DNA from: Escherichia coli
GTDB lineage: Bacteria > Pseudomonadota > Gammaproteobacteria > Enterobacterales > Enterobacteriaceae
Reading direction: 5' to 3' (one strand)
Assembly: GCF_016026235.1 (NCBI RefSeq)
Contig: NZ_CP065613.1
Length of the DNA stretch: 64,000 bases
The notes under the pieces were generated by a model. The model made no database searches, was not told where the DNA came from, and was given only the letters and a program-made list of their open reading frames with translations. Position 1 is the first letter of the stretch, and the number at the start of each line of letters is the position of its first letter. Shown one piece after another: positions 1 through 53,258 of this stretch. The translations under genes and the position numbers were made by a program.

Positions 1-881
1 AATAAACCATGGTGATTTCCCGGCAGTACGAGCTTTAGCCGTCACCGATGGTCTGGTTGCTCTTTCCTTCGAGCGTTTAAATCAACGACCTTTAGGCTTA
101 CTTTTATAAAGATAAAAATGCCCTTCATGTTGTGCATTTTTATCTCGACCCAGCAGGCCTTCACCTAAATAAATTGCTGTCGTTGATGCTTTTGTGCCTG
201 AGTCCGACACCTTTTCCCAGCCATTACCAACATTGTAATAATGATTGCCCAGTACCCGGCAAATATAGGTCCAGCCACGGGAGCGGAGCTGTTGGAACCA
301 TCGCCCCTGAAAACCGGCATCTGTAATAACAATGACATCAGTCCCGGGGGAAAAGCACTCAGCAAGCGATTCCAGAAAACGCTCATGTACATCTGCATTC
401 GCTGTCTGTGATGATGGAACGACACAACTCATCAACGGTAAAGAACGCCCGTCACATGCCAGGCTTGCCCGCAAAAGCTGAAAACGAGAGGCATGATAAG
501 CACTCCAGTCAATGAGTATCACAACACGAGACATTCCCCGCGTAATCTTTTGGGTAATTCGCTGAAAAATGGTGGAAACCTCATTTTGCAAATGTCGATT
601 CCCCAACAGTCGATCCACCCGCTTTATTTTGTTTTTAACTGATGCCGTACCGGTTAAATGACGCCCGATACTGGTAAGTGTGAGGGAAGCGCCATTTATT
701 ACAGCATTAGTTGCGTCAATCAGTGATTTTTGACGGTAAAGATGCAAAGGGGCCAGTATGTTGTTAAGGAAATTTTGGCATAATGAACGTGCAGGCATAG
801 TGGTGATCTCCTTGAAATTGTTAGCACAATCAATTAGATCACATCTCACTATGCCTGTCTTGTTTTCTGGGGATTCCTCAG
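1..881 (-). mobile_element. IS10-like (IS4-family) insertion sequence, copy 1, partial (runs off the left edge); outside end CTGAGGAATCCCC at 869-881
   Basis: Encoded protein has IS10-type motifs (KRVDRLLGNRHL, ILIDWS, VITDAGF); terminal sequence resembles the IS10 outside end; bases 7544-8303 are an inverted copy of the same element. Confidence 0.8.
82..798 (-). CDS. IS10-like transposase, 238 codons ending at an in-frame TGA (82-84); the same frame continues transposase-like beyond it
   Basis: ORF track 82..1125 from internal Met (MPARSLCQNF...); identical over 225 aa to the copy at 7627-8303; resemblance to IS10 Tnp is from memory. Confidence 0.75.
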   Translation of the reverse strand: MPARSLCQNFLNNILAPLHLYRQKSLIDATNAVINGASLTLTSIGRHLTGTASVKNKIKRVDRLLGNRHLQNEVSTIFQRITQKITRGMSRVVILIDWSAYHASRFQLLRASLACDGRSLPLMSCVVPSSQTANADVHERFLESLAECFSPGTDVIVITDAGFQGRWFQQLRSRGWTYICRVLGNHYYNVGNGWEKVSDSGTKASTTAIYLGEGLLGRDKNAQHEGHFYLYKSKPKGR

Positions 882-2027
882 GGAAATATCCTGCATTAAC
901 GCAGGCCACGCCCGATACCAGCCAGGGCGTTGCAAAAGCGCCGGAACATGCTGATAACGCTGTAGAATATCCCACAGCAGGCTGCGCTCGACGTTGTGAT
1001 GATAAAGCGCAAACAGATTTTGCGGCTCGCGGTGCTGGCAGGCGCTTATCAGCGTTTGTGCCGCCGCCTGCGCGCCAGTCAGCGCCATATCCATGCCGCG
1101 CACGGAAATTCCGGTATTGACGCAACTGCGCAACGCATCGCCCACCAGCAGCCAGCCGTTACCGGCGTATTGCACCGGCATACTGTGCAAGCCACCTTCT
1201 GGCACCAGATGCGCACCATACTCCAGTGATTCCGTGTTTTTGATAAGCGGGCGCACTGCCGGATGCGCTTTAAAGCGAGTCAGCAGCTCGCTTGCCGGAA
1301 CACGACTTTGCGTAAGGGAAGAGAGCGGGCAAACAATCCCTAACGAGAGCGTTTGTTGATTAGTATAAAGAAATGCGCCGCTGGGTAAGTCATCACAGAT
1401 CCTGCCGCTGAACAGCAACGCTGCGCCTTCGTTATTCTCCAGATGAAAACGTTCTTCAATAGCGGATGTTTCCAGCGACAGCACTTCTTTGATCCCCAAC
1501 GCCATCGCTTCGCCAGCAGGACGAGTCACTAACCCGTGACGTTCAGCCAGGACGCTGTTGGCACCTTCTGCCAGCACCACATAACGGGCGCGGAGAATAT
1601 CGTCACCACAAATGACACCACACACTCTGCCGTTTTCTTCATACAGTGCATCCACCGTCGCACCAGGGATGCATTCGACACCTTCTTTTTCGGCTTCGGC
1701 AACCAGCCACGGATCGAACCGTGCACGTAATACACTCCAGGATTCACCGCCGGGCTGTAAGCTGGAAAACGTCGTTGCGCCATCCGGCGTTAACAGGGAA
1801 AGGCTTTCGTGAGTGATGCGTCGTTCAAGAGGCGCGGTCAGATGAAACTGAGGGAGGAGTTCCGCGAGTGCATGGGTATATAACCGCCCGCCGGAAAGAT
1901 TTTTGCTGCCGGGGATTTCAGCGCGTTCCAGTAACAAAACGGATAAACCCGCTCGCGCGCAGCGTAACGCGCAAGCGGTGCCTGCAATACCGGCACCAAT
2001 AATAATAATGTCGCAGTCGTCTTCCAT
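882..2027 (-). pseudogene. ygcN: ygcN (FixC-like FAD-dependent oxidoreductase), 3' end truncated by the IS insertion at 881
   Basis: N-terminal FAD motif DIIIIGAGIAG; ORF runs into IS sequence about 40 codons short of the ~423 aa I recall for K-12 YgcN; start codon (2027 vs 2057) uncertain. Confidence 0.7.
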
Positions 2028-4585: not shown

Positions 4586-6297
4586 TGAGCGAAAAACATC
4601 CAGGGCCTTTAGTGGTCGAAGGAAAACTGACAGACGCCGAGCGCATGAAGCTTGAAAGCAACTACCTGCGCGGCACCATTGCGGAAGATTTAAACGACGG
4701 TCTGACCGGCGGCTTTAAGGGCGACAACTTCCTGCTGATCCGCTTCCACGGCATGTATCAGCAGGATGACCGCGACATCCGCGCCGAACGTGCTGAACAG
4801 AAGCTGGAGCCGCGCCACGCGATGCTGTTGCGCTGCCGTCTGCCGGGTGGGGTGATTACCACTAAACAGTGGCAGGCGATCGACAAATTTGCCGGTGAAA
4901 ACACCATCTATGGCAGCATTCGCCTGACCAACCGCCAGACGTTTCAGTTCCACGGCATTCTGAAAAAGAACGTCAAACCGGTGCACCAGATGCTGCACTC
5001 GGTCGGTCTTGATGCGCTGGCGACCGCTAACGACATGAACCGTAACGTACTCTGCACCTCGAACCCTTACGAGTCGCAGCTACACGCGGAAGCGTATGAA
5101 TGGGCGAAGAAAATCTCTGAACATCTGCTGCCGCGTACCCGCGCGTATGCGGAGATCTGGCTCGATCAGGAAAAAGTCGCCACCACCGATGAAGAACCGA
5201 TCCTCGGCCAGACCTACCTGCCGCGTAAATTCAAAACCACGGTAGTGATCCCGCCACAGAACGATATCGATCTGCACGCCAACGACATGAACTTCGTGGC
5301 AATCGCCGAAAACGGCAAGCTGGTGGGCTTTAACCTGCTGGTGGGCGGTGGGCTTTCCATCGAACACGGCAACAAGAAAACCTACGCCCGCACCGCGAGT
5401 GAGTTTGGCTATCTGCCGCTGGAGCATACGCTGGCAGTGGCGGAAGCCGTCGTGACAACTCAGCGTGACTGGGGTAACCGAACCGATCGTAAAAATGCCA
5501 AAACCAAATACACGCTGGAGCGCGTGGGGGTTGAGACGTTTAAAGCGGAAGTGGAGCGTCGCGCGGGGATCAAATTCGAGCCGATTCGCCCGTATGAGTT
5601 TACCGGACGCGGAGATCGTATTGGCTGGGTTAAGGGCATTGATGATAACTGGCACCTGACGCTGTTTATCGAAAATGGTCGCATCCTTGATTATCCGGGG
5701 CGTCCGCTGAAAACCGGCCTGCTGGAGATCGCGAAGATCCACAAAGGCGATTTCCGCATTACGGCGAACCAGAATCTGATCATCGCCGGTGTGCCGGAAA
5801 GCGAGAAAGCGAAGATCGAGAAGATCGCTAAAGAGAGCGGGTTAATGAATGCCGTCACGCCGCAGCGTGAAAACTCAATGGCCTGCGTGTCATTCCCGAC
5901 TTGCCCGCTGGCGATGGCGGAAGCGGAGCGTTTCCTGCCGTCTTTTATCGACAACATCGATAATTTAATGGCGAAACATGGTGTCAGCGATGAGCATATC
6001 GTGATGCGTGTAACAGGCTGCCCGAACGGTTGTGGTCGCGCGATGCTGGCGGAAGTGGGCCTGGTGGGTAAAGCGCCGGGTCGCTACAACCTGCATCTTG
6101 GCGGCAACCGTATTGGGACACGTATCCCACGGATGTATAAAGAAAACATCACCGAGCCGGAAATCCTGGCGTCGCTTGATGAACTGATAGGGCGCTGGGC
6201 GAAAGAGCGCGAAGCGGGTGAAGGCTTCGGCGACTTTACGGTGCGTGCGGGCATCATTCGCCCGGTGCTCGATCCGGCGCGCGATTTGTGGGATTAA
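4585..6297 (+). CDS. cysI: Sulfite reductase [NADPH] hemoprotein beta subunit
   Basis: 570-aa ORF, start overlaps cysJ stop (ATGA). Confidence 0.95.
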
Positions 6298-7160: not shown

Positions 7161-7368
7161 TGCGAGCAGCATTCCTGATTTTAAACGTGAACGCCGCTGG
7201 AAGAATTATCAGGTATAGAATGGCGTCGGGTGCTTGAGGCTGTCTGGCGTTAAGCATTCGCGAGGTTCCAGATGGACAAAAGCCCCAGGCGATATTTCTA
7301 TCAACCTGAGGCTCGCGTTCGAACGTAGCAATTCGAATGTTAGTCTCTTCTTTGCAGGGAGGCAAGAC

Positions 7369-7521
7369 ATGCTGACAAAATATGCCCTTGTGGCAATCAT
7401 AGTGCTGTGTTTTACAGTACTGGGATTCACGCTGATGGTAGGCGACTCGTTGTGTGAGTTGAGTATCAGAGAACGTGGTATGGAGTTTAAGGCTGTTCTC
7501 GCTTACGAATCGAAGAAGTAG
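7369..7521 (+). CDS. hokX: Hok/Gef-family type I toxin (50 aa) with an in-frame upstream Mok-like extension back to 7234; position matches the hokX/sokX locus next to cysH
   Basis: [50 protein letters not shown] carries the Hok motifs SLCE..IR and AYES; SD GGGAGG 7-14 nt upstream; gene name by position, from memory. Confidence 0.7.
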
Positions 7522-7543
7522 CCACCACGCGGGGGTAAAACCC

Positions 7544-8303
7544 CTGAGGAATCCCCAGAAAACAAGACAGGCATAGTGAGATGTGATCTAATTGATTGTG
7601 CTAACAATTTCAAGGAGATCACCACTATGCCTGCACGTTCATTATGCCAAAATTTCCTTAACAATATACTGGCCCCTTTGCATCTTTACCGTCAAAAATC
7701 ACTGATTGACGCAACTAATGCTGTAATAAATGGCGCTTCCCTCACACTTACCAGTATCGGGCGTCATTTAACCGGTACGGCATCAGTTAAAAACAAAATA
7801 AAGCGGGTGGATCGACTGTTGGGGAATCGACATTTGCAAAATGAGGTTTCCACCATTTTTCAGCGAATTACCCAAAAGATTACGCGGGGAATGTCTCGTG
7901 TTGTGATACTCATTGACTGGAGTGCTTATCATGCCTCTCGTTTTCAGCTTTTGCGGGCAAGCCTGGCATGTGACGGGCGTTCTTTACCGTTGATGAGTTG
8001 TGTCGTTCCATCATCACAGACAGCGAATGCAGATGTACATGAGCGTTTTCTGGAATCGCTTGCTGAGTGCTTTTCCCCCGGGACTGATGTCATTGTTATT
8101 ACAGATGCCGGTTTTCAGGGGCGATGGTTCCAACAGCTCCGCTCCCGTGGCTGGACCTATATTTGCCGGGTACTGGGCAATCATTATTACAATGTTGGTA
8201 ATGGCTGGGAAAAGGTGTCGGACTCAGGCACAAAAGCATCAACGACAGCAATTTATTTAGGTGAAGGCCTGCTGGGTCGAGATAAAAATGCACAACATGA
8301 AGG
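7544..8303 (+). mobile_element. IS10-like insertion sequence, copy 2, truncated (outside end plus 5' part of transposase), interrupted by IS4
   Basis: Begins CTGAGGAATCCCC 22 bp after the hok stop; inverted duplicate of 1-881; ends where the IS4 left end begins. Confidence 0.8.
7627..8303 (+). pseudogene. IS10-like transposase truncated after codon 225 by the IS4 insertion (the ORF reads 9 more codons into IS4)
   Basis: Identical to the 82-798 product up to ...DKNAQHEG, then diverges into the IS4 left end. Confidence 0.8.
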
Positions 8304-9729
8304 TAATGCCGATCAGTTAAGGATCAGTTGACCGATCCAGTGGCTGTGTAAGAATCCGGAAACGCTCACTTGTTTCCGGATTTTTTTATGCACATTGGAC
8401 AGGCTCTTGATCTGGTATCCCGTTACGATTCTCTGCGTAACCCACTGACTTCTCTGGGGGATTACCTCGACCCCGAACTCATCTCTCGTTGCCTTGCCGA
8501 ATCAGGTACTGTAACGCTACGCAAGCGCCGTCTTCCCCTCGAAATGATGGTCTGGTGTATTGTTGGCATGGCGCTTGAGCGTAAAGAACCTCTTCACCAG
8601 ATTGTGAATCGCCTGGACATCATGCTGCCGGGCAATCGCCCCTTCGTTGCCCCCAGTGCCGTTATTCAGGCCCGCCAGCGCCTGGGAAGTGAGGCTGTCC
8701 GCCGCGTGTTCACGAAAACAGCGCAGCTCTGGCATAACGCCACGCCGCATCCGCACTGGTGCGGCCTGACCCTGCTGGCCATCGATGGTGTGTTCTGGCG
8801 CACACCGGATACACCAGAGAACGATGCAGCCTTCCCCCGCCAGACACATGCCGGGAACCCGGCGCTCTACCCGCAGGTCAAAATGGTCTGCCAGATGGAA
8901 CTGACCAGCCATCTGCTGACGGCTGCAGCCTTCGGCACGATGAAGAACAGCGAAAATGAGCTTGCTGAGCAACTTATAGAACAAACCGGCGATAACACTC
9001 TGACGTTAATGGATAAAGGTTATTACTCACTGGGACTGTTAAATGCCTGGAGCCTGGCGGGAGAACACCGCCACTGGATGATACCTCTCAGAAAGGGAGC
9101 GCAATATGAAGAGCTCAGAAAACTGGGTAAAGGCGATCATCTGGTGAAGCTGAAAACCAGCCCGCAGGCACGAAAAAAGTGGCCGGGACTGGGAAATGAA
9201 GTGACAGCCCGCCTGCTGACCGTGACGCGCAAAGGAAAAGTCTGCCATCTGCTGACGTCGATGACGGACGCCATGCGCTTCCCCGGAGGAGAAATGGCGG
9301 ATCTGTACAGTCATCGCTGGGAAATCGAACTGGGATACAGGGAGATAAAACAGACGATGCAACTGAGCAGGCTGACGCTGAGAAGTAAAAAGCCGGAGCT
9401 TGTGGAGCAAGAGCTGTGGGGTGTCTTACTGGCTTATAATCTGGTGAGATATCAGATGATTAAAATGGCGGAACATCTGAAAGGTTACTGGCCGAATCAA
9501 CTGAGTTTCTCAGAATCATGCGGAATGGTGATGAGAATGCTGATGACATTGCAGGGCGCTTCACCGGGACGTATACCGGAGCTGATGCGCGATCTTGCAA
9601 GTATGGGACAACTTGTGAAATTACCGACGAGAAGGGGAAGGGCCTTCCCGAGAGTGGTAAAGGAGAGGCCCTGGAAATACCCCACAGCCCCGAAAAAGAG
9701 CCAGTCAGTTGCTTAACTGACTGGCATTA
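8304..9729 (+). mobile_element. IS4, complete 1426-bp element with imperfect terminal inverted repeats (TAATGCCGATCAGTTAAGG ... CTTAACTGACTGGCATTA)
   Basis: Length, terminal repeats and encoded InsG match IS4; flanks (ACAACATGAAGG left, CGACATTTGCCG right) are not a direct repeat. Confidence 0.9.
8388..9716 (+). CDS. insG: IS4 transposase InsG (442 aa)
   Basis: [36 protein letters not shown]... near-identical to E. coli IS4 transposase as remembered. Confidence 0.92.
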
Positions 9730-31069: not shown

Positions 31070-31253
31070 ATTTCTCTGAGATGTTCGCAAGCGGGCCAGT
31101 CCCCTGAGCCGATATTTCATACCACAAGAATGTGGCGCTCCGCGGTTGGTGAGCATGCTCGGTCCGTCCGAGAAGCCTTAAAACTGCGACGACACATTCA
31201 CCTTGAACCAAGGGTTCAAGGGTTACAGCCTGCGGCGGCATCTCGGAGATTCC
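31070..31253 (+). ncRNA. ssrS: 6S RNA (RNA polymerase sigma-70 regulatory RNA)
   Basis: Begins ATTTCTCTGAGATGTTCGCAAGCGGGCCAGTCCCCTGAGCCG and ends ...GGCGGCATCTCGGAGATTCC, matching E. coli 6S RNA from memory; ends +/- 3 nt. Confidence 0.88.
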
Positions 31254-31327
31254 CTTCTTATCTGGCACCAGCCATGACGCAACTACCAGAACTCCCACTG
31301 ACATTATCCCGACAAGAAATCCGCAAA

Positions 31328-31876
31328 ATGATTCGGCAACGTCGTCGTGCGTTAACGCCGGAACAACAGCAGGAAATGGGTCAACAAGCCGCTACCCGGA
31401 TGATGACTTATCCCCCGGTGGTGATGGCGCATACGGTCGCTGTATTCCTCTCTTTTGATGGTGAACTCGACACCCAGCCGCTAATAGAACAACTCTGGCG
31501 CGCCGGTAAGCGCGTATATCTTCCAGTTTTGCATCCCTTTAGTGCCGGTAATTTGCTGTTCCTGAATTACCATCCGCAAAGCGAACTGGTGATGAACAGG
31601 TTGAAGATCCATGAGCCAAAACTGGATGTGCGTGACGTGCTACCCCTTTCCCGATTAGACGTGCTGATCACACCGCTGGTCGCCTTTGATGAGTACGGTC
31701 AGCGCCTGGGAATGGGCGGTGGTTTTTATGATCGGACCTTACAAAACTGGCAGCACTATAAAACGCAACCGGTGGGTTATGCGCATGATTGTCAGTTGGT
31801 GGAAAAACTCCCCGTTGAAGAGTGGGATATCCCTCTTCCTGCGGTGGTTACACCGTCGAAAGTCTGGGAGTGGTAA
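31328..31876 (+). CDS. ygfA: 5-formyltetrahydrofolate cyclo-ligase (YgfA/Fau), co-transcribed with ssrS
   Basis: 182 aa from MIRQRRRALTPEQQQEMGQQ...; an alternative start at 31274 gives 200 aa. Confidence 0.88.
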   Translation: MIRQRRRALTPEQQQEMGQQAATRMMTYPPVVMAHTVAVFLSFDGELDTQPLIEQLWRAGKRVYLPVLHPFSAGNLLFLNYHPQSELVMNRLKIHEPKLDVRDVLPLSRLDVLITPLVAFDEYGQRLGMGGGFYDRTLQNWQHYKTQPVGYAHDCQLVEKLPVEEWDIPLPAVVTPSKVWEW

Positions 31877-31937
31877 GGGCGATACACCTGCATCGCGCTG
31901 ATTGACATCGTTGATTCTTTAACCTAATTTAGTGAGT

Positions 31938-32082
31938 AAGGGTAAGGGAGGATTGCTCCTCCCCTGTGACTGACTGTTAATAAGCTGGGAAACTTATGAG
32001 TAACAGTACAATCAGTATGATGGCAAGTCGCATCATAACCCTTCTCCTTCAAGCCCTCGCTTCGGTGAGGGCTTTACCGTTA
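31938..32082 (+). ncRNA. sibC: Sib antisense RNA (type I antitoxin), copy 1; ends approximate
   Basis: Promoter TTGACA-17bp-TAATTT at 31902-31930; fully overlaps the ibs ORF on the opposite strand; hairpin AAGCCCTCGCTTCGGTGAGGGCTTT at 32051-32075. Confidence 0.5.
31977..32036 (-). CDS. ibsC: Ibs-family type I toxin, 19 aa (MMRLAIILIVLLLISFPAY)
   Basis: Reverse complement of 31977-32036 translates to an Ibs peptide; SD GGAGAAGGG upstream on the minus strand. Confidence 0.75.
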   Translation of the reverse strand: MMRLAIILIVLLLISFPAY

Positions 32083-32329
32083 CAGCCCCATGCTGCCCAG
32101 TTATCGTAAGCTCTCTTTAAATAACCGCAACGCATTGATCTACCTTTAAATCTTTTCTTCGAGCGCGCTCGAAAAACCCCATGCAAAACAGAGATAATTT
32201 TTGGGAAAAAGGATCTATTACGGCAGTAAACGTGGGCGATGAAGTGGCTATCAAAAAGTTCGGTTCAGGGCGATGCACCCCGCATCGCCCTGATTGACAT
32301 CGTTGATTCTTTGACCTAATTTAGTGAGT

Positions 32330-32474
32330 AAGGGTAAGGGAGGATGACTCCTCCCCTGAGACTGACTGTTAATAAGCTCCGAAACTTATCAGTAACAGTA
32401 CAATCAGTATGATGACAAGTCGCATCATAACCCTTCTCCTTTAAGCCCTCGCTTCGGTGAGGGCTTTACCGTTA
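32330..32474 (+). ncRNA. Sib antisense RNA, copy 2; ends approximate
   Basis: Same promoter and hairpin as copy 1, shifted 392 bp. Confidence 0.5.
32369..32428 (-). CDS. Ibs-family type I toxin, 19 aa (MMRLVIILIVLLLISFGAY), second copy
   Basis: Reverse complement of 32369-32428; differs from copy 1 at two residues. Confidence 0.75.
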   Translation of the reverse strand: MMRLVIILIVLLLISFGAY

Positions 32475-32610
32475 CAGCCCCATGCTGTCCCGCCATCGTA
32501 AATCCCCATTAAATAAACACAACGCATTGATCTGAGTTTGATTTATTTTCTGGAGCAGACTCGCAAAGTAGAATGCGCAACGCGGCAACGGTGTGGAGAA
32601 GGGATAAAAA

Positions 32611-32638
32611 AACGGGCAAGTCAGTGACCTGCCCGTTA
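32611..32638 (-). terminator. Rho-independent terminator of serA
   Basis: Minus strand ACGGGCAGGTCACTGACTTGCCCGTTTTTTTAT just after the serA stop. Confidence 0.7.
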
Positions 32639-32656: not shown

Positions 32657-33889
32657 TTAGTACAGCAGACGGGCGCGAATGGTACCCGGAATAGCTTTCA
32701 TTGCCTGCAGCGCTTTTTCGGCAACGTCTTCGTCAGCTTCAATATCAATAACTACATAACCCATCTGGGCGGAAGTTTGTAGATATTGCGCGGCGATGTT
32801 GACGCCCTGCTCGGCGAAGATTTTGTTCAGCGCAGTTAGCACGCCCGGACGGTTTTCGTGGATGTGCATCAGACGACGACCACCATGCAGTGGCAGCGAG
32901 ACTTCCGGGAAGTTCACCGCAGAGAGCGTTGAGCCATTGTCAGAATACTTGATCAATTTACCCGCAACTTCCAGGCCGATATTCTCCTGCGCTTCCTGAG
33001 TCGAACCGCCAATGTGTGGCGTCAGAAGGACGTTGTCGAATTCACACAGTGGAGAGGTAAATGGATCGCTATTGGTCGCCGGTTCCGTCGGGAATACGTC
33101 GATTGCCGCCCCCGCCAGATGTTTGCTCGCCAGCGCATCACACAGCGCCGGAATATCCACCACAGTACCGCGCGAGGCATTAATCAGCAGCGAGCCGGGC
33201 TTCATTAGCGAAATCTCTTTCGCGCCCATCATATTTTTGGTGGACGGATTCTCTGGTACATGCAGACTCACCACATCGCTCATATTCAGCAGGTCAGAAA
33301 GATGCTGTACCTGAGTGGCGTTGCCCAGCGGCAGTTTGTTTTCAATATCATAAAAGTAAACATACATTCCCAGCGATTCAGCCAGAATGCCCAATTGAGT
33401 ACCAATATGACCGTAGCCGATGATACCCAGCTTTTTGCCGCGCGCTTCAAAAGAACCCGCCGCCAGTTTGTTCCACACGCCACGGTGCGCTTTAGCATTG
33501 GCTTCCGGCACGCCGCGCAATAGCAGCAGCAGTTCGCCAATCACCAGCTCCGCAACAGAGCGCGTATTTGAGAACGGTGCGTTAAATACCGGGATCCCGC
33601 GCTTTGCCGCCGCATCCAGATCAACCTGGTTTGTTCCGATACAGAAACAGCCAATAGCGACCAGTTTTTCTGCGGCGTTGATCACGTCTTCAGTCAGATG
33701 GGTACGGGATCGCAGGCCGATGAAGTGGGCATCGCGGATGGATTCTTTTAATTGTTCATCATCCAGCGCGCCTTTGTGAAATTCGATGTTGGTGTAACCA
33801 GCTGCACGAAGGCTTTCCAGCGCCTTTTGGTGCACGCCTTCTACCAGCAGAAACTTAATCTTGTCTTTCTCCAGCGATACCTTTGCCAT
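32657..33889 (-). CDS. serA: D-3-phosphoglycerate dehydrogenase
   Basis: 410 aa, NAD-binding GxGxxG plus ACT domain. Confidence 0.95.
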   Translation of the reverse strand: MAKVSLEKDKIKFLLVEGVHQKALESLRAAGYTNIEFHKGALDDEQLKESIRDAHFIGLRSRTHLTEDVINAAEKLVAIGCFCIGTNQVDLDAAAKRGIPVFNAPFSNTRSVAELVIGELLLLLRGVPEANAKAHRGVWNKLAAGSFEARGKKLGIIGYGHIGTQLGILAESLGMYVYFYDIENKLPLGNATQVQHLSDLLNMSDVVSLHVPENPSTKNMMGAKEISLMKPGSLLINASRGTVVDIPALCDALASKHLAGAAIDVFPTEPATNSDPFTSPLCEFDNVLLTPHIGGSTQEAQENIGLEVAGKLIKYSDNGSTLSAVNFPEVSLPLHGGRRLMHIHENRPGVLTALNKIFAEQGVNIAAQYLQTSAQMGYVVIDIEADEDVAEKALQAMKAIPGTIRARLLY

Positions 33890-45436: not shown

Positions 45437-45535
45437 GCCGGATGCGGCGTGAACGCCTTATCCGGCCTACAAAAACCTGCAAATTCAATATATTGCAGGA
45501 TACGTGTAGGCCTGATAAGCGTAGCGCATCAGGCA
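45437..45535. repeat. BIME: two REP units flanking a central palindrome
   Basis: GCCGGATGCGGCGTGAACGCCTTATCCGGCCTAC ... CCTGCAAATTCAATATATTGCAGG ... GTAGGCCTGATAAGCGTAGCGCATCAGGCA. Confidence 0.8.
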
Positions 45536-49125: not shown

Positions 49126-49496
49126 AGATCTCCTGCAAGGTTTTCCCTGAGCAAATTTGCCAGACAGAGTAATCCAGCAAATCGTCCGGGGAAACCTTAC
49201 CTGTCGCAAACTGCGACTGATTGGTTAATTGTCGAACATTTAATCGACTGAAACGCTTCAGCTAGGATAAGCGAAACGTGGAATAAAAGGAATGATTGTC
49301 CAGTCAAAGAAAGCAATTATCTGACTTACGTCACGTTTTCAGCCCCGCCCCTGTGGAATTTATTCCACTTTGCAGAATCACGAATAAGCGTAGCAAAATC
49401 TTTTCGTTGTGCCGTCACAAACCCTGACTTATATCAGAATATGACTGATGCAGCGTCGATATTATCCGCAATACGTCCGAGTTTCGGAGTACTCCA

Positions 49497-49928
49497 ATGA
49501 TGACATTGCCCTACCCATATTCTTCCTCCGCACGCTTTTACGCACTGCGCCTCCTCCCTGGGCAGGAAGTTTTTTCCCAGCTACACGCTTTTGCACAGCA
49601 GCATCAACTTCATGCCGCCTGGATTGCAGGCTGTACCGGTAGCCTGACTGACGTCGCCTTGCGCTATGCCGGGCAAGAAGGCACCACGCTCCTGAACGGT
49701 ACATTCGAAGTGATCTCACTAAACGGCACGCTGGAACAGAGTGGTGAGCATCTTCATCTCTGCGTTTCCGATCCACACGGCACGATGCTTGGCGGTCATA
49801 TGATGCCCGGCTGTACCGTGCGGACCACGCTTGAACTGGTGATCGGTAGCCTTGAGGAACTGGCGTTTAGCCGCCAACCTTGCGCGCTTTCTGGTTACGA
49901 CGAGTTGCATATTTCCCCCGTTAAATAA
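49497..49928 (+). CDS. PPC/DUF296-domain protein, 143 aa, function unknown; first gene of the ECF-type cluster
   Basis: ORF with GGAG 8 nt upstream; domain assignment by recollection of the family, not by search. Confidence 0.55.
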   Translation: MMTLPYPYSSSARFYALRLLPGQEVFSQLHAFAQQHQLHAAWIAGCTGSLTDVALRYAGQEGTTLLNGTFEVISLNGTLEQSGEHLHLCVSDPHGTMLGGHMMPGCTVRTTLELVIGSLEELAFSRQPCALSGYDELHISPVK

Positions 49929-49950
49929 CTACTTTCAAAGAGGTTTTCTT

Positions 49951-50529
49951 ATGGCGCGTAGCCACTTTTCCAGTCAGGCACTGGTGTTGATCGTTATATC
50001 TATCGCCATCAATATGATCGGCGGGCAACTGGCCAGCATGGTCAAATTACCTATATTTCTCGACTCCATCGGCACACTTATTAGCGCGGTACTGCTTGGT
50101 CCGGTGATCGGAATGCTGACCGGCTTACTGACCAATTTACTCTGGGGATTGCTGACCGACCCGATCGCCGCCGCATTTGCACCCGTCGCGATGGTCATCG
50201 GCCTGGTCGCCGGTTGGCTGGCGCGAGCGGGTTGGTTTCGCACCCTGCCAAAAGTCGTTGTCAGCGGCGTGATTATTACGCTTGCGGTAACGGTCGTCGC
50301 TGTACCGCTGCGTACTGCGCTGTTCGGCGGTGTCACCGGTAGCGGAGCCGATTTGTTCGTTGCCTGGATGCACTCGATGGGGCAAAACCTGGTGGAGTCG
50401 GTGGCGATTACGGTGATAGGCGCGAACCTGGTCGATAAAATTCTTACAGCGGTGATTGTCTGGCTTTTACTGCGCCAGCTGCCGATTCGCACCACGCGCC
50501 ATTTTCCGGCAATGGCTGCCGTGCGCTAA
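49951..50529 (+). CDS. ECF-transporter S (substrate-capture) component, about 192 aa, substrate unknown
   Basis: Small polytopic hydrophobic protein with about 5-6 TM helices; RBS AAGAGG; immediately followed by the T and A components. Confidence 0.6.
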   Translation: MARSHFSSQALVLIVISIAINMIGGQLASMVKLPIFLDSIGTLISAVLLGPVIGMLTGLLTNLLWGLLTDPIAAAFAPVAMVIGLVAGWLARAGWFRTLPKVVVSGVIITLAVTVVAVPLRTALFGGVTGSGADLFVAWMHSMGQNLVESVAITVIGANLVDKILTAVIVWLLLRQLPIRTTRHFPAMAAVR

Positions 50530-51237
50530 ATGCATCCATTTACCTCATTAACACTGTGGGCATTGGCGGCCTGCACCACGCTTATCCTGCCCGCGCAGAC
50601 CATTTTGCCGATCTATAGCGCGGCGACCTTTTTCTGCCTTATTGCGCTAAAGGCCACGCGGCGGCGGGCAAAATATGTCGTCTGGCTGATGTTCTCGCTG
50701 GGAGCCGGGCTGTGGCTGGTACACGGTGGCTGGCTACCAGAATGGCTAAGCGGCACGCCACGCTCGCCAGAACGGTGGTCGCATGCTATTACGCTCTGGT
50801 TGCGGATTCTGGCGATTGTTTCAACCTCACAGTTGTGGATGCAGTACGTCCCCGTGCAATGTTTTATTCGCGCTCTGTTTGCTTCTCGCCTGCCGCCAGG
50901 CGTCGCTTATCTGTTTGCCGGGCCGTTATTGGTCGTTGAGCAGTTAAAACGGCAATTAGCGATTATTCATGAAGCGCAGCGTGCCCGCGGCGTGTCGCTG
51001 GATGAGGGCTGGTATCAGCGTTTACGTGCGATGCCCGCGTTAATTATTCCGCTAACACACAATGCGCTTAACGATCTGGCTGTCCGTGGTGCGGCGCTGG
51101 ATATGCGGGCATTTCGGATCCACAACCGACGAACAACGTTGTGGGCACCAGCCGATAGCACCCTACAACGCGTAGCGCGTTACACCATGATCTTGCTGAT
51201 GCTGACAGAATTCGGAGCGTGGATATGGTTACGTTAG
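50530..51237 (+). CDS. ECF-transporter T (transmembrane coupling) component, EcfT/CbiQ family
   Basis: 235-aa membrane protein with an Ala-Arg-Gly coupling motif (EAQRARGVSL); start abuts the S-component stop. Confidence 0.65.
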   Translation: MHPFTSLTLWALAACTTLILPAQTILPIYSAATFFCLIALKATRRRAKYVVWLMFSLGAGLWLVHGGWLPEWLSGTPRSPERWSHAITLWLRILAIVSTSQLWMQYVPVQCFIRALFASRLPPGVAYLFAGPLLVVEQLKRQLAIIHEAQRARGVSLDEGWYQRLRAMPALIIPLTHNALNDLAVRGAALDMRAFRIHNRRTTLWAPADSTLQRVARYTMILLMLTEFGAWIWLR

Positions 51238-51902
51238 AACAGTTCCGTTATTGCCCGACACACTCAACGCATCCTCCGTTCTGTTATGACTTTCACTATG
51301 TCAAACCGGGGATGGTCGCCATCTTTGGTGACAACGGCAGTGGCAAAAGTACGCTGGCACAGCTGATGGCGGGCTGGTATCCGGACTTTCTGCCAGGAGA
51401 GATAACAGGCACGGGGACGCTCCTCGGTACGCCCATTGGGCATCTCCCGCTTAATGAACAATCCGCCACCATCCAGCTCGTCCAGCAATCGCCCTATTTG
51501 CAGCTCTCCGGCTGTACCTTTAGCGTGGAAGAAGAAGTTGCCTTTGGGCCAGAAAATCTGTGTCTTGCTGAAGCAGAGATTATGGCGCGGATTGATGCCG
51601 CCCTGACTCTGACCGAGTGCCAGCCGTTGCGCCATCGTCACCTGGCAACACTCTCCGGTGGAGAGACACAGCGCGTGGTCATCGCCTGCGCCATCGCGAT
51701 GCAGCCAAAGCTCTTAATTCTTGATGAAGCCTTTAGCCGCCTGACTCCGCAGGCCAGCGAAATGCTGTTGCAGCGCTTACAACACTGGGCGTTTGAACGT
51801 GGTTCGCTGATTATTCTTTTTGAACGTCATCGCACACCTTTCCTGAACTACTGCCAGCAAGCGTGGCAATTGCAAAACGGAGCGCTCCAGCCACTATGTT
51901 AA
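51219..51902 (+). CDS. ECF-transporter ATPase A1 (ABC ATPase)
   Basis: Walker A GDNGSGKST, signature LSGGETQRV, Walker B LLILDEA; start overlaps the T stop. Confidence 0.8.
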   Translation: MDMVTLEQFRYCPTHSTHPPFCYDFHYVKPGMVAIFGDNGSGKSTLAQLMAGWYPDFLPGEITGTGTLLGTPIGHLPLNEQSATIQLVQQSPYLQLSGCTFSVEEEVAFGPENLCLAEAEIMARIDAALTLTECQPLRHRHLATLSGGETQRVVIACAIAMQPKLLILDEAFSRLTPQASEMLLQRLQHWAFERGSLIILFERHRTPFLNYCQQAWQLQNGALQPLC

Positions 51903-52573
51903 CGTTAAATAAGATATCTTATCGCTGGCCTGGCGCGGCAACGGATTGTCTTTGCGACATTTCTCTGCAACTCAAACAAGGTGAATGGTTGGCGCTGACC
52001 GGCGACAATGGCGCGGGAAAATCGACGCTGTTACGAGTAATGGCAGGTCTTCTTACGCCCACAGCCGGTACGGTTATGCTGCAACAACAGGCGATGAAAA
52101 ACCTGAAAAACCGCCAGCGCGCGGCAAAGGTTGGCGTACTGTTTCAGGAAGCGGAAAACCAACTTTTTCACAGCACCGTCGCTGACGAGATCGCATTTGG
52201 TTTGAAACTGCAAAAATGCCCGGCGGATGAAATCACTCAACGTACCCATGCTGCCCTGCAATGTTGTCAGTTAGCAGACACTGCCAACTCGCACCCGTTG
52301 GATCTGCATAGTGCGCAGCGACGGATGGTCGCCGTCGCCTGCCTGGAAGCACTCTCTCCGCCACTATTACTGCTGGACGAGCCGAGTCGGGATTTTGACG
52401 AAAATTGGTTGAGCGTGTTTGAAAGCTGGCTGGAGAAGTGCCGCCAGCGAGGCACGAACGTGGTAGCAATCAGTCATGACGCCGCATTTACCCGGCGTCA
52501 TTTCTCTCGTGTGGTGCGACTGGAAGATGGTGTAATCAGGAACGTTAATCCACCAGACGATATTCACCCGTAG
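51896..52573 (+). CDS. ECF-transporter ATPase A2 (ABC ATPase) with a degenerate signature motif
   Basis: Walker A GDNGAGKST, Walker B LLLLDEP, H-loop ISHD; signature position reads HSAQRR not LSGGQ; start ATG overlaps the A1 stop (ATGTTAA). Confidence 0.78.
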   Translation: MLTLNKISYRWPGAATDCLCDISLQLKQGEWLALTGDNGAGKSTLLRVMAGLLTPTAGTVMLQQQAMKNLKNRQRAAKVGVLFQEAENQLFHSTVADEIAFGLKLQKCPADEITQRTHAALQCCQLADTANSHPLDLHSAQRRMVAVACLEALSPPLLLLDEPSRDFDENWLSVFESWLEKCRQRGTNVVAISHDAAFTRRHFSRVVRLEDGVIRNVNPPDDIHP

Positions 52574-53258
52574 CGGTCATCATTAAGGTCAAATTTGCAG
52601 GCAGACTCTCTTCCAGCACCCGGCGAACATTCGGCCCGTCGGTACGGTCATAAAAGGCTTCTGCATCTGCCAGCGATACCCCTCCCGCCAGCTTGCGCCC
52701 CACCAGACGCTCCCGCAACGCAGTAGCTGGCGCGTTGATAAAGATCGAGAAATCACAAAATTGCGCAAGCTGGCACCACTTCTCGTCGTCCAGCAACAAC
52801 CAGTTTCCTTCGACGATGACGAGTGGTGCGGTAACGTGCAACGCATCTTCAACAGGATCATGCTTTTGTCGATCGTACTGCGGCCACGTACAATCCCCTT
52901 CCACCACCTGGCGCAGATTTTCCGCCAGTTTCGCAACGTCAAATGTCTCTGGTGCGCCTTTGAAGGGGCGCAATTGATGCGCGTCCAGCCAGCTATTGTA
53001 ATGGTGAAAACCATCCATCGGGAGCGTCTGAATAGCGGGTAGTTCCGGGTCTTGTTGCGCGAGATATTCCCAGAAGGTGGTTAGGGTAGATTTACCCGTC
53101 CCCGGCGGAGCGCAAAGAAAAACTACCGTACGCCGCTGTGGATTTACCGTCTGTAAGGCCGCCAACATGCGCAGCAACGGTTTATGTACATTTTCTATTT
53201 CATCATCAGAGTACTGAGCCTGTACCTTTAGTCCATTCACCGTCAGTTCGATTTTCAC
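52545..53258 (-). CDS. yggC: P-loop kinase-like protein YggC
   Basis: 237 aa, Walker A CAPPGTGKST; 3' end overlaps A2 convergently by 29 bp. Confidence 0.9.
   Translation of the reverse strand: MKIELTVNGLKVQAQYSDDEIENVHKPLLRMLAALQTVNPQRRTVVFLCAPPGTGKSTLTTFWEYLAQQDPELPAIQTLPMDGFHHYNSWLDAHQLRPFKGAPETFDVAKLAENLRQVVEGDCTWPQYDRQKHDPVEDALHVTAPLVIVEGNWLLLDDEKWCQLAQFCDFSIFINAPATALRERLVGRKLAGGVSLADAEAFYDRTDGPNVRRVLEESLPANLTLMMTATGEYRLVD

What the first reader, a model, noticed from the sequence alone, without database searches (positions are those of the whole stretch)
31879..32540. Two tandem Ibs/Sib type I toxin-antitoxin modules between ygfA and serA
Two repeat units, 392 bp apart, each encode a 19-aa hydrophobic Ibs peptide on the minus strand (MMRLAIILIVLLLISFPAY and MMRLVIILIVLLLISFGAY), each overlapped by a plus-strand transcription unit with a near-consensus -35/-10 and a hairpin. 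K-12 carries a single module (ibsC/sibC) at this position as I recall, with tandem pairs only at other loci. The copies have diverged in toxin residues and at scattered antisense positions, so they may form discriminating sRNA-target pairs.
Basis: seen in the sequence. Interest (0 to 1): 0.6.

Follow-up and report, generated by a model that had tools for sequence, protein, structure and literature searches.

The report
Two known Ibs/Sib toxin-antitoxin modules
The fau(ygfA)-serA spacer holds two intact copies of the well-known E. coli Ibs/Sib small-toxin/antisense-RNA module, an arrangement found in about a third of complete E. coli genomes and already annotated, so it is ordinary.

Summary
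Two repeat units lie 392 bp apart between fau (ygfA) and serA. Each matches Rfam SIB_RNA (137 and 134 bits; threshold 56).

Both units keep every element mapped for K-12 sibC/ibsC: the Sib promoter, a 141-nt Sib RNA with the same predicted fold, its terminator hairpin, and the ibs promoter, start site and ribosome-binding site.

It is not new. The spacer found only between the two units occurs in 1858 of 5426 complete E. coli genomes, including O157:H7 Sakai. The exact unit-1 and unit-2 alleles occur in 1518 and 1836 genomes. RefSeq already annotates both toxin genes. Fozo et al. 2010 counted seven Ibs genes in Sakai against five in K-12.

The "discriminating pairs" idea is only half supported. 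The two Sib RNAs differ at 8 of 141 positions: three in target-recognition domain TRD1 and one in TRD2. That one becomes a G·U wobble in one direction. Either domain alone suffices for repression (Han et al. 2010), so I predict cross-repression, at least of ibs-1 by Sib-2. This is untested.

Verdict: already known; low interest.

The parts
31887..32175 (.). Repeat unit 1 (SIB repeat, next to fau)
   Evidence: Direct repeat family D1, 289 nt, reference copy
31902..31930 (+). Sib-1 promoter: -35 TTGACA (31902-31907), 17-bp spacer, -10 TAATTT (31925-31930)
   Evidence: Sequence. Same positions relative to +1 as K-12 sibC; the only spacer difference is A for G at 31921 (the TTTAACC/TTTGACC site). 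Unit 2's promoter is identical to K-12's
31938..32078 (+). Sib-1 antitoxin RNA, 141 nt. Ends inferred by alignment to annotated K-12 SibC
   Evidence: Rfam RF00113, 137 bits. 5 differences from K-12 SibC. Same predicted fold as SibC, -54.8 kcal/mol, z -4.5
32051..32074 (+). Sib-1 terminator hairpin (P7), AAGCCCTCGC-TTCG-GTGAGGGCTT
   Evidence: Fold; sequence
31977..32036 (-). ibs-1 toxin ORF, MMRLAIILIVLLLISFPAY
   Evidence: Translation. Annotated in an identical RefSeq locus as WP_001387035.1, Ibs family toxin
31938..32096 (-). ibs-1 mRNA, 159 nt. The +1 at 32096 is inferred from the mapped ibsC start (GCAGCATGGGGCTG)
   Evidence: Primer ERI-T7-ibsC and the 159-nt ibsC transcript of Han et al. 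2010. Sequence. Fold like K-12 ibsC mRNA
32103..32130 (-). ibs-1 promoter: -35 TTGCGG (32130..32125), 16-bp spacer, -10 TACGAT (32108..32103)
   Evidence: Sequence, positioned relative to the mapped ibsC +1. Inferred
32176..32278 (.). Inter-unit spacer, found only in two-module genomes
   Evidence: Probe 32120-32275 hits 1858 of 5426 genomes, once each. No homologue in the K-12 loci or elsewhere in the window
32279..32567 (.). Repeat unit 2 (next to serA)
   Evidence: Direct repeat family D1, 88% identical to unit 1
32294..32322 (+). Sib-2 promoter: -35 TTGACA (32294-32299), 17-bp spacer, -10 TAATTT (32317-32322)
   Evidence: Sequence
32330..32470 (+). Sib-2 antitoxin RNA, 141 nt, with terminator hairpin at 32443-32466
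   Evidence: Rfam RF00113, 134 bits. 6 differences from K-12 SibC. Predicted fold identical to SibC, -55.2 kcal/mol, z -6.0
32369..32428 (-). ibs-2 toxin ORF, MMRLVIILIVLLLISFGAY
   Evidence: Translation. Annotated in RefSeq as ibsC, WP_071524576.1
32330..32488 (-). ibs-2 mRNA, 159 nt. The +1 at 32488 (A instead of G) is inferred
   Evidence: Alignment to the ibsC start; fold
32495..32522 (-). ibs-2 promoter: -35 TTGTGT (32522..32517), 16-bp spacer, -10 TACGAT (32500..32495)
   Evidence: Sequence; identical to the K-12 ibsC upstream region
31274..31876 (+). fau (ygfA), left flanking gene
   Evidence: RefSeq annotation of an identical locus
32657..33889 (-). serA, right flanking gene; its terminator hairpin lies at 32637..32611
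   Evidence: ORF; annotation; terminator scan

Best explanation
These are two intact, paralogous ibs/sib type I toxin-antitoxin modules of the SibC lineage. Together they form the common two-module haplotype of the E. coli fau-serA spacer.

In each unit the minus strand gives a roughly 159-nt ibs mRNA encoding a 19-residue hydrophobic membrane toxin. The plus strand gives a 141-nt Sib RNA from a strong -35/17-bp promoter. That RNA is fully complementary to the ibs ORF and its ribosome-binding site.

As shown for K-12 SibC/ibsC, Sib contacts the ibs mRNA through two independent domains. TRD1 (nt 46-68, the P5 loop) pairs inside the ORF. TRD2 (nt 99-115, the J1/7 junction) pairs over the translation-initiation region. 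Pairing blocks translation and triggers degradation of the mRNA.

The two units have diverged in TRD1, at positions 50, 51 and 61 (ibs codon 17, Pro against Gly). TRD2 is almost unchanged, differing only at position 113. I therefore predict that the two modules are not insulated. Sib-2 should repress ibs-1 through TRD2 about as well as its own target, because the mismatch becomes a G·U pair. Sib-1 should repress ibs-2 somewhat less well, because the mismatch there is C·A.

Shown here: sequence, family membership, intact signals, population frequency. Inferred: transcription of both units, toxicity of both peptides, and the cross-repression. My probability for cross-repression alone is about 0.55-0.6.
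For: - Family match: both Sib RNAs hit Rfam SIB_RNA at 137 and 134 bits against a threshold of 56.
- ORFs and signals: verified base by base.
- Numbering: the Sib numbering used here reproduces G49CU51 and C107UCCUUC113 of Han et al..
- Structure: the predicted folds have the same architecture as K-12 SibC, apart from a re-paired P3 region in Sib-1, with z-scores -4.5 to -6.0. The ibs mRNA folds match K-12 ibsC.
- Placement of differences: seven of the eight Sib differences fall in predicted loops or junctions, and one (position 30) weakens a P3 pair.
- Frequency: the two-module spacer is in 1858 of 5426 genomes, and the exact alleles are in 1518 and 1836 genomes. Persistence of intact copies at that frequency argues for maintained function.
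- Annotation: RefSeq annotates both toxin genes.
- Mechanism: TRD1/TRD2 independence and the sufficiency of either come from Han et al. 2010, PMC2943612.
- Cross-talk, energies: for TRD2, Sib-2 on ibs-1 gives -25.4 kcal/mol against -25.3 cognate. Sib-1 on ibs-2 gives -22.8 against -27.6. K-12 non-cognate pairs mostly reach about 50-70% of cognate, with pairs involving SibA, the known exception to discrimination, up to about 85%.
- Cross-talk, shared sequence: the two Sib RNAs share an uninterrupted run at 87-112 (26 nt) that includes the P6-loop GUCG needed by TRD2.
- Transcription in a two-module lineage: Cappable-seq reads and a start site are shown for sibC in O157:H7 EDL933 (PMC10469882).
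Against: - No transcript, toxicity or repression data exist here for either unit.
- The K-12 SibD/SibE pair is reported not to cross-react, yet shares a 36-nt run (76-111) and differs only at the 3' edge of the J1/7 junction (3 positions). That edge may be unusually critical, so the single change at 113 could matter more than the duplex energy suggests.
- Ibs-1 carries V5A. V5 was the one N-terminal residue reported as important for IbsC toxicity (review PMC8309996 citing Mok et al.), so ibs-1 may be an attenuated toxin.
- Fozo et al. 2008 and Fozo 2012 could not be read. They may already contain direct data on these copies.
Confidence: 0.85

Rival explanations
1. One reading: the two modules are orthogonal. 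Each Sib represses only its own ibs mRNA, as reported for the K-12 paralogues.
For: - TRD1 differs at 3 of 23 positions. The non-cognate TRD1 duplexes drop to 56-63% of cognate energy, within the range of K-12 pairs reported not to cross-react.
- In all five two-module genomes examined (window, Sakai, AB66, MB53, SCPM-O-B-8794) the two units differ at ibs codons 16-17, the core of TRD1.
- K-12 SibD and SibE are said to discriminate while differing only at the 3' edge of TRD2 (Han et al. 2010).
Against: - Han et al. found that changing one TRD alone did not abolish repression; both had to be changed.
- Here TRD2 differs at a single base, which becomes a G·U pair for Sib-2 on ibs-1. The energy equals the cognate value.
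- Positions 87-112 and 114-141 are identical between the two Sib RNAs.
Confidence: 0.3
2. One unit is a decaying, non-expressed relic of a duplication, and only one module is functional.
For: - Unit 1 has a U at Sib position 30 that breaks a P3 base pair.
- Unit 1 also carries V5A in the toxin.
- The locus is dispensable: an O157:H7 strain (TR01) has lost both modules, and E. whittamii carries a degenerate copy lacking the ibs start codon.
Against: - Both units retain perfect -35 boxes, identical -10 boxes, identical terminators, intact ribosome-binding sites, start and stop codons, and ibs promoters.
- Both score as high as K-12 SibC-lineage copies in Rfam.
- The exact unit-1 allele is conserved in 1518 complete genomes.
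- Seven of the eight Sib differences avoid predicted stems.
Confidence: 0.07
3. The duplication is an assembly artefact or a chance resemblance.
For: None found.
Against: - The identical 981-bp arrangement is present in a closed genome, CP013662.
- The two-module spacer is present in 1858 complete genomes.
- The Rfam E-values are about 1e-28.
Confidence: 0.01

Closest known systems
E. coli K-12 sibC/ibsC (b4446/b4665), the single module between fau (ygfA) and serA
   Same: - Same locus, same orientation and the same 141-nt Sib ends.
- Same promoters, terminator and ibs transcription start.
- Sib-1 differs from SibC at 5 of 141 positions and Sib-2 at 6 of 141.
- The TRD2 of Sib-1 is identical to that of SibC.
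   Different: - There are two modules here instead of one.
- The toxins carry P17 (plus A5) and G17, where K-12 IbsC has S17.
- The TRD1 core is UGG or UCC, where SibC has GCU.
- K-12's unit looks like a recombinant: a unit-1-type Sib region joined to a unit-2-type tail (my inference).
K-12 tandem pairs sibA/ibsA-sibB/ibsB (yegL-mdtA) and sibD/ibsD-sibE/ibsE (yqiK-hldE)
   Same: - Two head-to-tail Ibs/Sib modules in one intergenic region, with start-to-start spacings of 335-376 bp there and 392 bp here.
- Sequence variation is concentrated in TRD1 and TRD2.
   Different: The K-12 pairs are more diverged. SibD and SibE differ at 15 positions (5 in TRD1, 3 in TRD2), and SibA and SibB at 37. The pair here differs at 8 positions (3 in TRD1, 1 in TRD2). 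The K-12 pairs are reported to discriminate, except for ibsA. This pair probably does not discriminate fully.
Two-module fau-serA haplotype of other E. coli (for example O157:H7 Sakai, O103, O111, O121 and strain 08-00022)
   Same: - Strain 08-00022 is identical over the 981-bp region.
- Sakai has the same architecture, with the same unit-2 toxin (ISFGAY) and a unit-1 variant (ISLPAY).
- PGAP annotates both toxins.
- Fozo et al. 2010 list seven Ibs genes in Sakai.
   Different: Nothing of substance. The window carries the majority allele pair.

Membership tests
Ibs/Sib type I toxin-antitoxin family (Rfam RF00113 SIB_RNA; NCBI 'Ibs family toxin') | An antitoxin RNA of about 140 nt whose sequence and structure match the SIB_RNA covariance model above its gathering score | tested here: met
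   137 and 134 bits against a gathering score of 56, both full-length matches. Predicted folds have the same architecture as K-12 SibC, apart from a re-paired P3 region in Sib-1.
Ibs/Sib type I toxin-antitoxin family (Rfam RF00113 SIB_RNA; NCBI 'Ibs family toxin') | An 18-19-codon, highly hydrophobic ORF lying entirely inside, and antisense to, the Sib RNA | tested here: met
   19-codon ORFs at 32036..31977 and 32428..32369, inside Sib-1 (31938-32078) and Sib-2 (32330-32470). They differ from K-12 IbsC at 2 and 1 residues respectively.
Ibs/Sib type I toxin-antitoxin family (Rfam RF00113 SIB_RNA; NCBI 'Ibs family toxin') | Convergent transcription signals: a Sib promoter and terminator, and an ibs promoter, start site and Shine-Dalgarno as mapped for sibC/ibsC | tested here: met
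   TTGACA-17-TAATTT; terminator hairpin; TTGNGN-16-TACGAT; the ibs +1 motif (G/A)CAGCATGGGGCTG; Shine-Dalgarno AAGGAG. This is a sequence-level test only.
Ibs/Sib type I toxin-antitoxin family (Rfam RF00113 SIB_RNA; NCBI 'Ibs family toxin') | Both RNAs are actually transcribed, with Sib constitutive and abundant | not testable with these tools
   Indirect only: a sibC start site and Cappable-seq reads are reported in O157:H7 EDL933. No allele-resolved data were found.
Ibs/Sib type I toxin-antitoxin family (Rfam RF00113 SIB_RNA; NCBI 'Ibs family toxin') | Overproduced Ibs peptide is toxic (membrane depolarisation), and the toxicity is relieved by Sib | not testable with these tools
   Inferred from 17 of 19 and 18 of 19 residues shared with IbsC. 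V5A in Ibs-1 touches a residue reported as important.
Ibs/Sib type I toxin-antitoxin family (Rfam RF00113 SIB_RNA; NCBI 'Ibs family toxin') | Conserved chromosomal site of the SibC lineage, between fau (ygfA) and serA | tested here: met
   fau ends at 31876 and serA starts at 33889 on the minus strand. The same site is used in K-12, Sakai, two unnamed Escherichia species (E1V33, MOD1-EC7003) and a Citrobacter.
Discriminating (orthogonal) Sib paralogue pair, in the sense of Han et al. 2010 | TRD1 (nt 46-68) differs enough between the paralogues to break contiguous pairing | tested here: met
   3 of 23 positions differ (50, 51, 61). Non-cognate duplexes reach 56-63% of cognate energy.
Discriminating (orthogonal) Sib paralogue pair, in the sense of Han et al. 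2010 | TRD2 (nt 99-115, plus the P6-loop element) also differs, because either domain alone can repress | tested here: not met
   Only position 113 differs (C against U). Sib-2 on ibs-1 gives -25.4 kcal/mol against -25.3 cognate, and Sib-1 on ibs-2 gives -22.8 against -27.6. Positions 87-112 are identical.
Discriminating (orthogonal) Sib paralogue pair, in the sense of Han et al. 2010 | Experimental absence of cross-repression | not testable with these tools
   Requires co-transformation or reporter assays.

The most novel reading that the evidence does not exclude
The pair is a half-insulated toxin-antitoxin duplicate caught partway through divergence. TRD1, together with toxin codon 17, is hypervariable across E. 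coli alleles (Ser, Pro, Gly, Leu-Pro; Ala in a Citrobacter). It differed between the two units in all five two-module genomes examined, while TRD2 stays shared. That would create an asymmetric back-up network: Sib-2 covers ibs-1 fully, and Sib-1 covers ibs-2 only partly. It would also point to population-level diversifying selection on the recognition loop. The locus would then be a natural system for watching antisense-RNA specificity evolve.
Probability: 0.2. Interest if true: 0.35.

Novelty: already known. Interest (0 to 1): 0.1.

Why it matters
It matters little as a discovery. This is a textbook type I toxin-antitoxin family, in a copy-number state shared by about a third of sequenced E. 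coli and already annotated in RefSeq.

The one point of modest value is a prediction that follows from published rules. This natural pair differs in TRD1 but barely in TRD2. It is therefore a ready-made test of how many mismatches, and where, are needed for Sib paralogues to stop cross-reacting. It would also show whether tandem type I modules back each other up.

A practical point: work that treats 'sibC/ibsC' as a single-copy locus, such as K-12-based probes, deletions or read mapping, will be confounded in strains that carry the two-module haplotype (O157:H7 Sakai, O103, O111 and O121 strains among those seen here).

Tried and rejected
- Generic promoter and terminator scan. It listed neither the Sib promoters nor the Sib hairpins. 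The -10 TAATTT matches only 3 of 6 consensus positions, and the hairpin is not followed by a run of T. I therefore placed the signals by homology with K-12 sibC and with the primers of Han et al.
- First literature search on 'Sib/Ibs/ygfA/serA'. It returned only irritable-bowel-syndrome papers.
- Fozo et al. 2008 (PubMed 18710431, PMC2597788) and Fozo 2012 (doi 10.4161/rna.22568; I also tried PMC3679272, an id recalled from memory). None is held. I could not check whether these papers describe the fau-serA duplicate explicitly.
- Supplementary tables of Fozo et al. 2010. They are not held.
- Assuming the window equals strain 08-00022 because the 981-bp region is 100% identical. This was wrong: the window is not colinear with that genome outside about 21-49 kb.
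- A simple recent tandem duplication as the origin. Rejected because the roughly 100-bp inter-unit spacer has no counterpart in single-module genomes or elsewhere. K-12's single unit looks instead like a recombinational collapse of two units.
- Which state is ancestral. This stays unresolved. Two unnamed Escherichia species (E1V33, MOD1-EC7003) and a Citrobacter have one module, while E. whittamii keeps a unit-2-type left junction.
- NCBIfam and Pfam scans of the peptides. Not possible, because 19 residues is below the tools' minimum length.

Full report
**What is there**

The window around 31.0-33.9 kb reads zapA, ssrS (6S RNA, 31070-31253), fau/ygfA (ending at 31876, plus strand), a 780-bp spacer, then serA (32657-33889, minus strand).

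The spacer holds one direct repeat family. Its copies lie at 31887-32175 and 32279-32567. They are 289 nt long, 88% identical and 392 bp apart start to start.

Each copy gives a full-length match to Rfam RF00113 (SIB_RNA) on the plus strand, at 137 and 134 bits against a gathering score of 56 (E about 1e-28).

Each copy also carries a 19-codon ORF on the minus strand, entirely inside the Sib match. The ORF at 32036..31977 encodes MMRLAIILIVLLLISFPAY. The ORF at 32428..32369 encodes MMRLVIILIVLLLISFGAY.

**Anatomy, by homology with K-12 sibC/ibsC**

I aligned both units with the annotated K-12 sibC (NC_000913.3, 3056851-3056991). The alignment reproduces the numbering of Han et al. 2010, including G49CU51 and C107UCCUUC113.

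The elements in window coordinates (unless stated):

| Element | Unit 1 | Unit 2 |
|---|---|---|
| Sib promoter (TTGACA, 17 bp, TAATTT) | 31902-31930 | 32294-32322 |
| Sib RNA, 141 nt | 31938-32078 | 32330-32470 |
| Sib terminator hairpin, 10 bp, identical in both | 32051-32074 | 32443-32466 |
| ibs ORF (minus strand) | 32036..31977 | 32428..32369 |
| ibs mRNA +1 (minus strand), 159-nt transcript | 32096 | 32488 |
| ibs promoter (minus strand) | TTGCGG, 16 bp, TACGAT | TTGTGT, 16 bp, TACGAT |
| Shine-Dalgarno | AAGGAG | AAGGAG |

The ibs start sites are placed from the in-vitro-transcription primers of Han et al., which give the mapped ibsC +1 as GCAGCATGGGGCTG and a 159-nt transcript.

Both Sib RNAs are predicted to fold like SibC, apart from a re-paired P3 region in Sib-1 (-54.8 and -55.2 kcal/mol, against -55.3 for SibC; z-scores -4.5 to -6.0). 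Both ibs mRNAs fold like ibsC mRNA. Nothing in either unit looks broken.

The generic promoter scan did not report it.

**How common it is**

- A probe limited to the inter-unit spacer (32120-32275) hits 1858 of 5426 complete E. coli genomes, once each. The hits include O157:H7 Sakai and O103, O111 and O121 strains.
- The remaining genomes, including K-12, strain B and ST131, have a 589-bp version with one module.
- An 81-nt probe across the ibs ORF of unit 1 is matched exactly in 1518 genomes. The unit-2 probe is matched exactly in 1836 genomes. The window therefore carries the majority allele pair.
- RefSeq/PGAP already annotates both toxins: 'type I toxin-antitoxin system Ibs family toxin' (WP_001387035.1) and 'ibsC' (WP_071524576.1).
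- Fozo et al. 2010 (PMC2887945) report seven Ibs genes in O157:H7 Sakai, against five in K-12. They also note that ibs-sib loci are duplicated within single intergenic regions. Sakai has two modules at fau-serA.
- T1TAdb catalogues the family.

The arrangement is therefore known, although I could not read Fozo 2008 or Fozo 2012 to see whether this particular duplicate is discussed.

**Mechanism**

The mechanism established for K-12 is as follows. Ibs peptides depolarise the membrane when overproduced (review PMC8309996). Sib RNAs repress their cognate ibs mRNAs. SibC does so through two independent target-recognition domains. TRD1 (nt 46-68, the P5 loop) pairs within the ORF. TRD2 (nt 99-115, the J1/7 junction, which also needs the P1 stem and the P6-loop GUCG) pairs over the translation-initiation region. 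Changing either domain alone to the SibD sequence left ibsC repressed; changing both abolished repression (PMC2943612).

Applied to this pair:
- Sib-1 and Sib-2 differ at positions 17, 18, 30, 50, 51, 61, 86 and 113.
- Seven of these lie in predicted loops or junctions. Position 30 weakens one P3 pair in Sib-1.
- TRD1 carries three differences. Positions 50 and 51 are also the Pro/Gly change at toxin codon 17, and position 61 is a synonymous Leu change. Non-cognate TRD1 duplexes fall to 56-63% of cognate energy, like K-12 pairs reported not to cross-react.
- TRD2 carries one difference, at position 113. When Sib-2 (U113) meets ibs-1 the pair becomes G·U, and the duplex energy equals the cognate value (-25.4 against -25.3 kcal/mol).
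- When Sib-1 (C113) meets ibs-2 there is one C·A mismatch (-22.8 against -27.6 kcal/mol, 83% of cognate). K-12 non-cognate pairs mostly reach about 50-70%.
- Positions 87-112 (26 nt, including the P6-loop GUCG) and 114-141 are identical in the two Sib RNAs.

By the published rule that either domain suffices, I predict cross-repression. It should be complete for Sib-2 on ibs-1 and partial for Sib-1 on ibs-2. This is inference, and I put it at about 0.55-0.6.

The main caveat is the K-12 SibD/SibE pair. It is reported as discriminating, yet differs in TRD2 only at three positions at the same 3' edge of the J1/7 junction. That edge may carry more weight than the energies suggest.

**Origin (tentative)**

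- The roughly 100-bp inter-unit spacer has no homologue in single-module genomes, in the other K-12 Sib loci or elsewhere in the window. The two-module state is therefore not a simple recent tandem duplication of the one-module state.
- K-12's unit is mosaic. Its Sib region resembles a unit-1 allele: strain AB66 carries the K-12 IbsC allele as its unit 1. The sequence upstream of the ibs -10 box is unit-2-type. This is what recombination between the two repeats would leave.
- Against that, Escherichia sp. E1V33, Escherichia sp. MOD1-EC7003 and Citrobacter sp. MGH106 have a single module at this site.
- E. whittamii has a single degenerate module (it lacks the ibs start codon; Rfam 95.6 bits) with a unit-2-type left junction.
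- One O157:H7 strain (TR01) has lost both modules through a deletion joined at a CAT microhomology. This shows that the locus is dispensable when toxin and antitoxin are lost together.

**Verdict**

The identification as two Ibs/Sib modules is correct. The hint of novelty is not supported, because this is a common and already annotated haplotype. The 'discriminating pairs' idea is supported for TRD1 and contradicted for TRD2. Novelty: already known. Interest: low (0.1). The only residual value is as a natural test case for the mismatch rules of Sib specificity.

Noticed in passing
window 7228-7521 (+): Rfam sok antitoxin (RF01794) hit at 7228-7384, 106.7 bits. It overlaps an ORF at 7234..7521 whose C-terminal 50 residues ([50 protein letters not shown]) look Hok-like to me; I ran no comparison. 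This would be a second type I toxin-antitoxin locus in the window, lying just before the IS copy at 7542-8303, at one end of the cysJIH-ygcN segment.
   Followed up: partly
window 122-883 and 7542-8303; 8370-9716: Perfect 762-nt inverted repeats (ISEc60-like IS4-family element) flank a 6.7-kb cysJ-cysI-cysH-ygcN segment. A 448-aa ORF that looks like a transposase (8370-9716; not searched) follows, and the sequence then joins lysS. As I recall the K-12 map, these regions are far apart in K-12, so this looks like an IS-mediated inversion or rearrangement junction. The window is not colinear with strain 08-00022 or FDAARGOS_943.
   Followed up: partly
window 49334-52614: A roughly 3.3-kb segment encoding ECF-transporter components, two ABC ATPases and a PPC-domain protein. 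It is absent from strain 08-00022 but covered at 80% or more in 3318 of 5426 complete E. coli genomes, so it is a presence/absence island.
   Followed up: partly
window 45471-45513 (+): Rfam ES036 (CssrF) sRNA match, 47.3 bits against a gathering score of 37.6. By coordinate transfer from strain 08-00022 it lies in the mscS-fbaA intergenic region.
   Followed up: no
window 31938-32078 and 32330-32470; RefSeq NZ_CP013662.1: PGAP annotates both ibs CDSs in the identical locus but no sib ncRNA gene. The Sakai record NC_002695.2 annotates neither the ibs nor the sib genes at this locus.
   Followed up: yes
window 31880-31901 and 32272-32293 (+): Each repeat unit begins with an imperfect palindrome (GGGCGAT...ATCGCCC in unit 2; the right arm reads ATCGCGC in unit 1) just upstream of the Sib -35. 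It is conserved in K-12 and the outgroups. Its role is unknown; candidates are a fau terminator, an ibs 3'-end element or a protein-binding site.
   Followed up: no
L004 (E. coli O157:H7 TR01), locus 497-705: Both Ibs/Sib modules are deleted. The junction ...CTGATTGACAT|GTGCTGTCCCGCC... joins the unit-1 Sib -35 to the unit-2 ibs start region at a CAT microhomology.
   Followed up: yes
L018 (Escherichia whittamii), 4685-4824: The serA-proximal Sib copy has an internal deletion that removes the ibs start codon (Rfam 95.6 bits). Its left junction resembles the unit-2 junction of E. coli, and fau was not found in the 4.7 kb upstream.
   Followed up: partly
window 32024 (ibs-1 codon 5): Ibs-1 has Ala at residue 5. 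V5 is the one N-terminal residue reported as affecting IbsC toxicity (PMC8309996 citing Mok et al.). Escherichia sp. MOD1-EC7003 encodes the same peptide as its only module at this locus.
   Followed up: no
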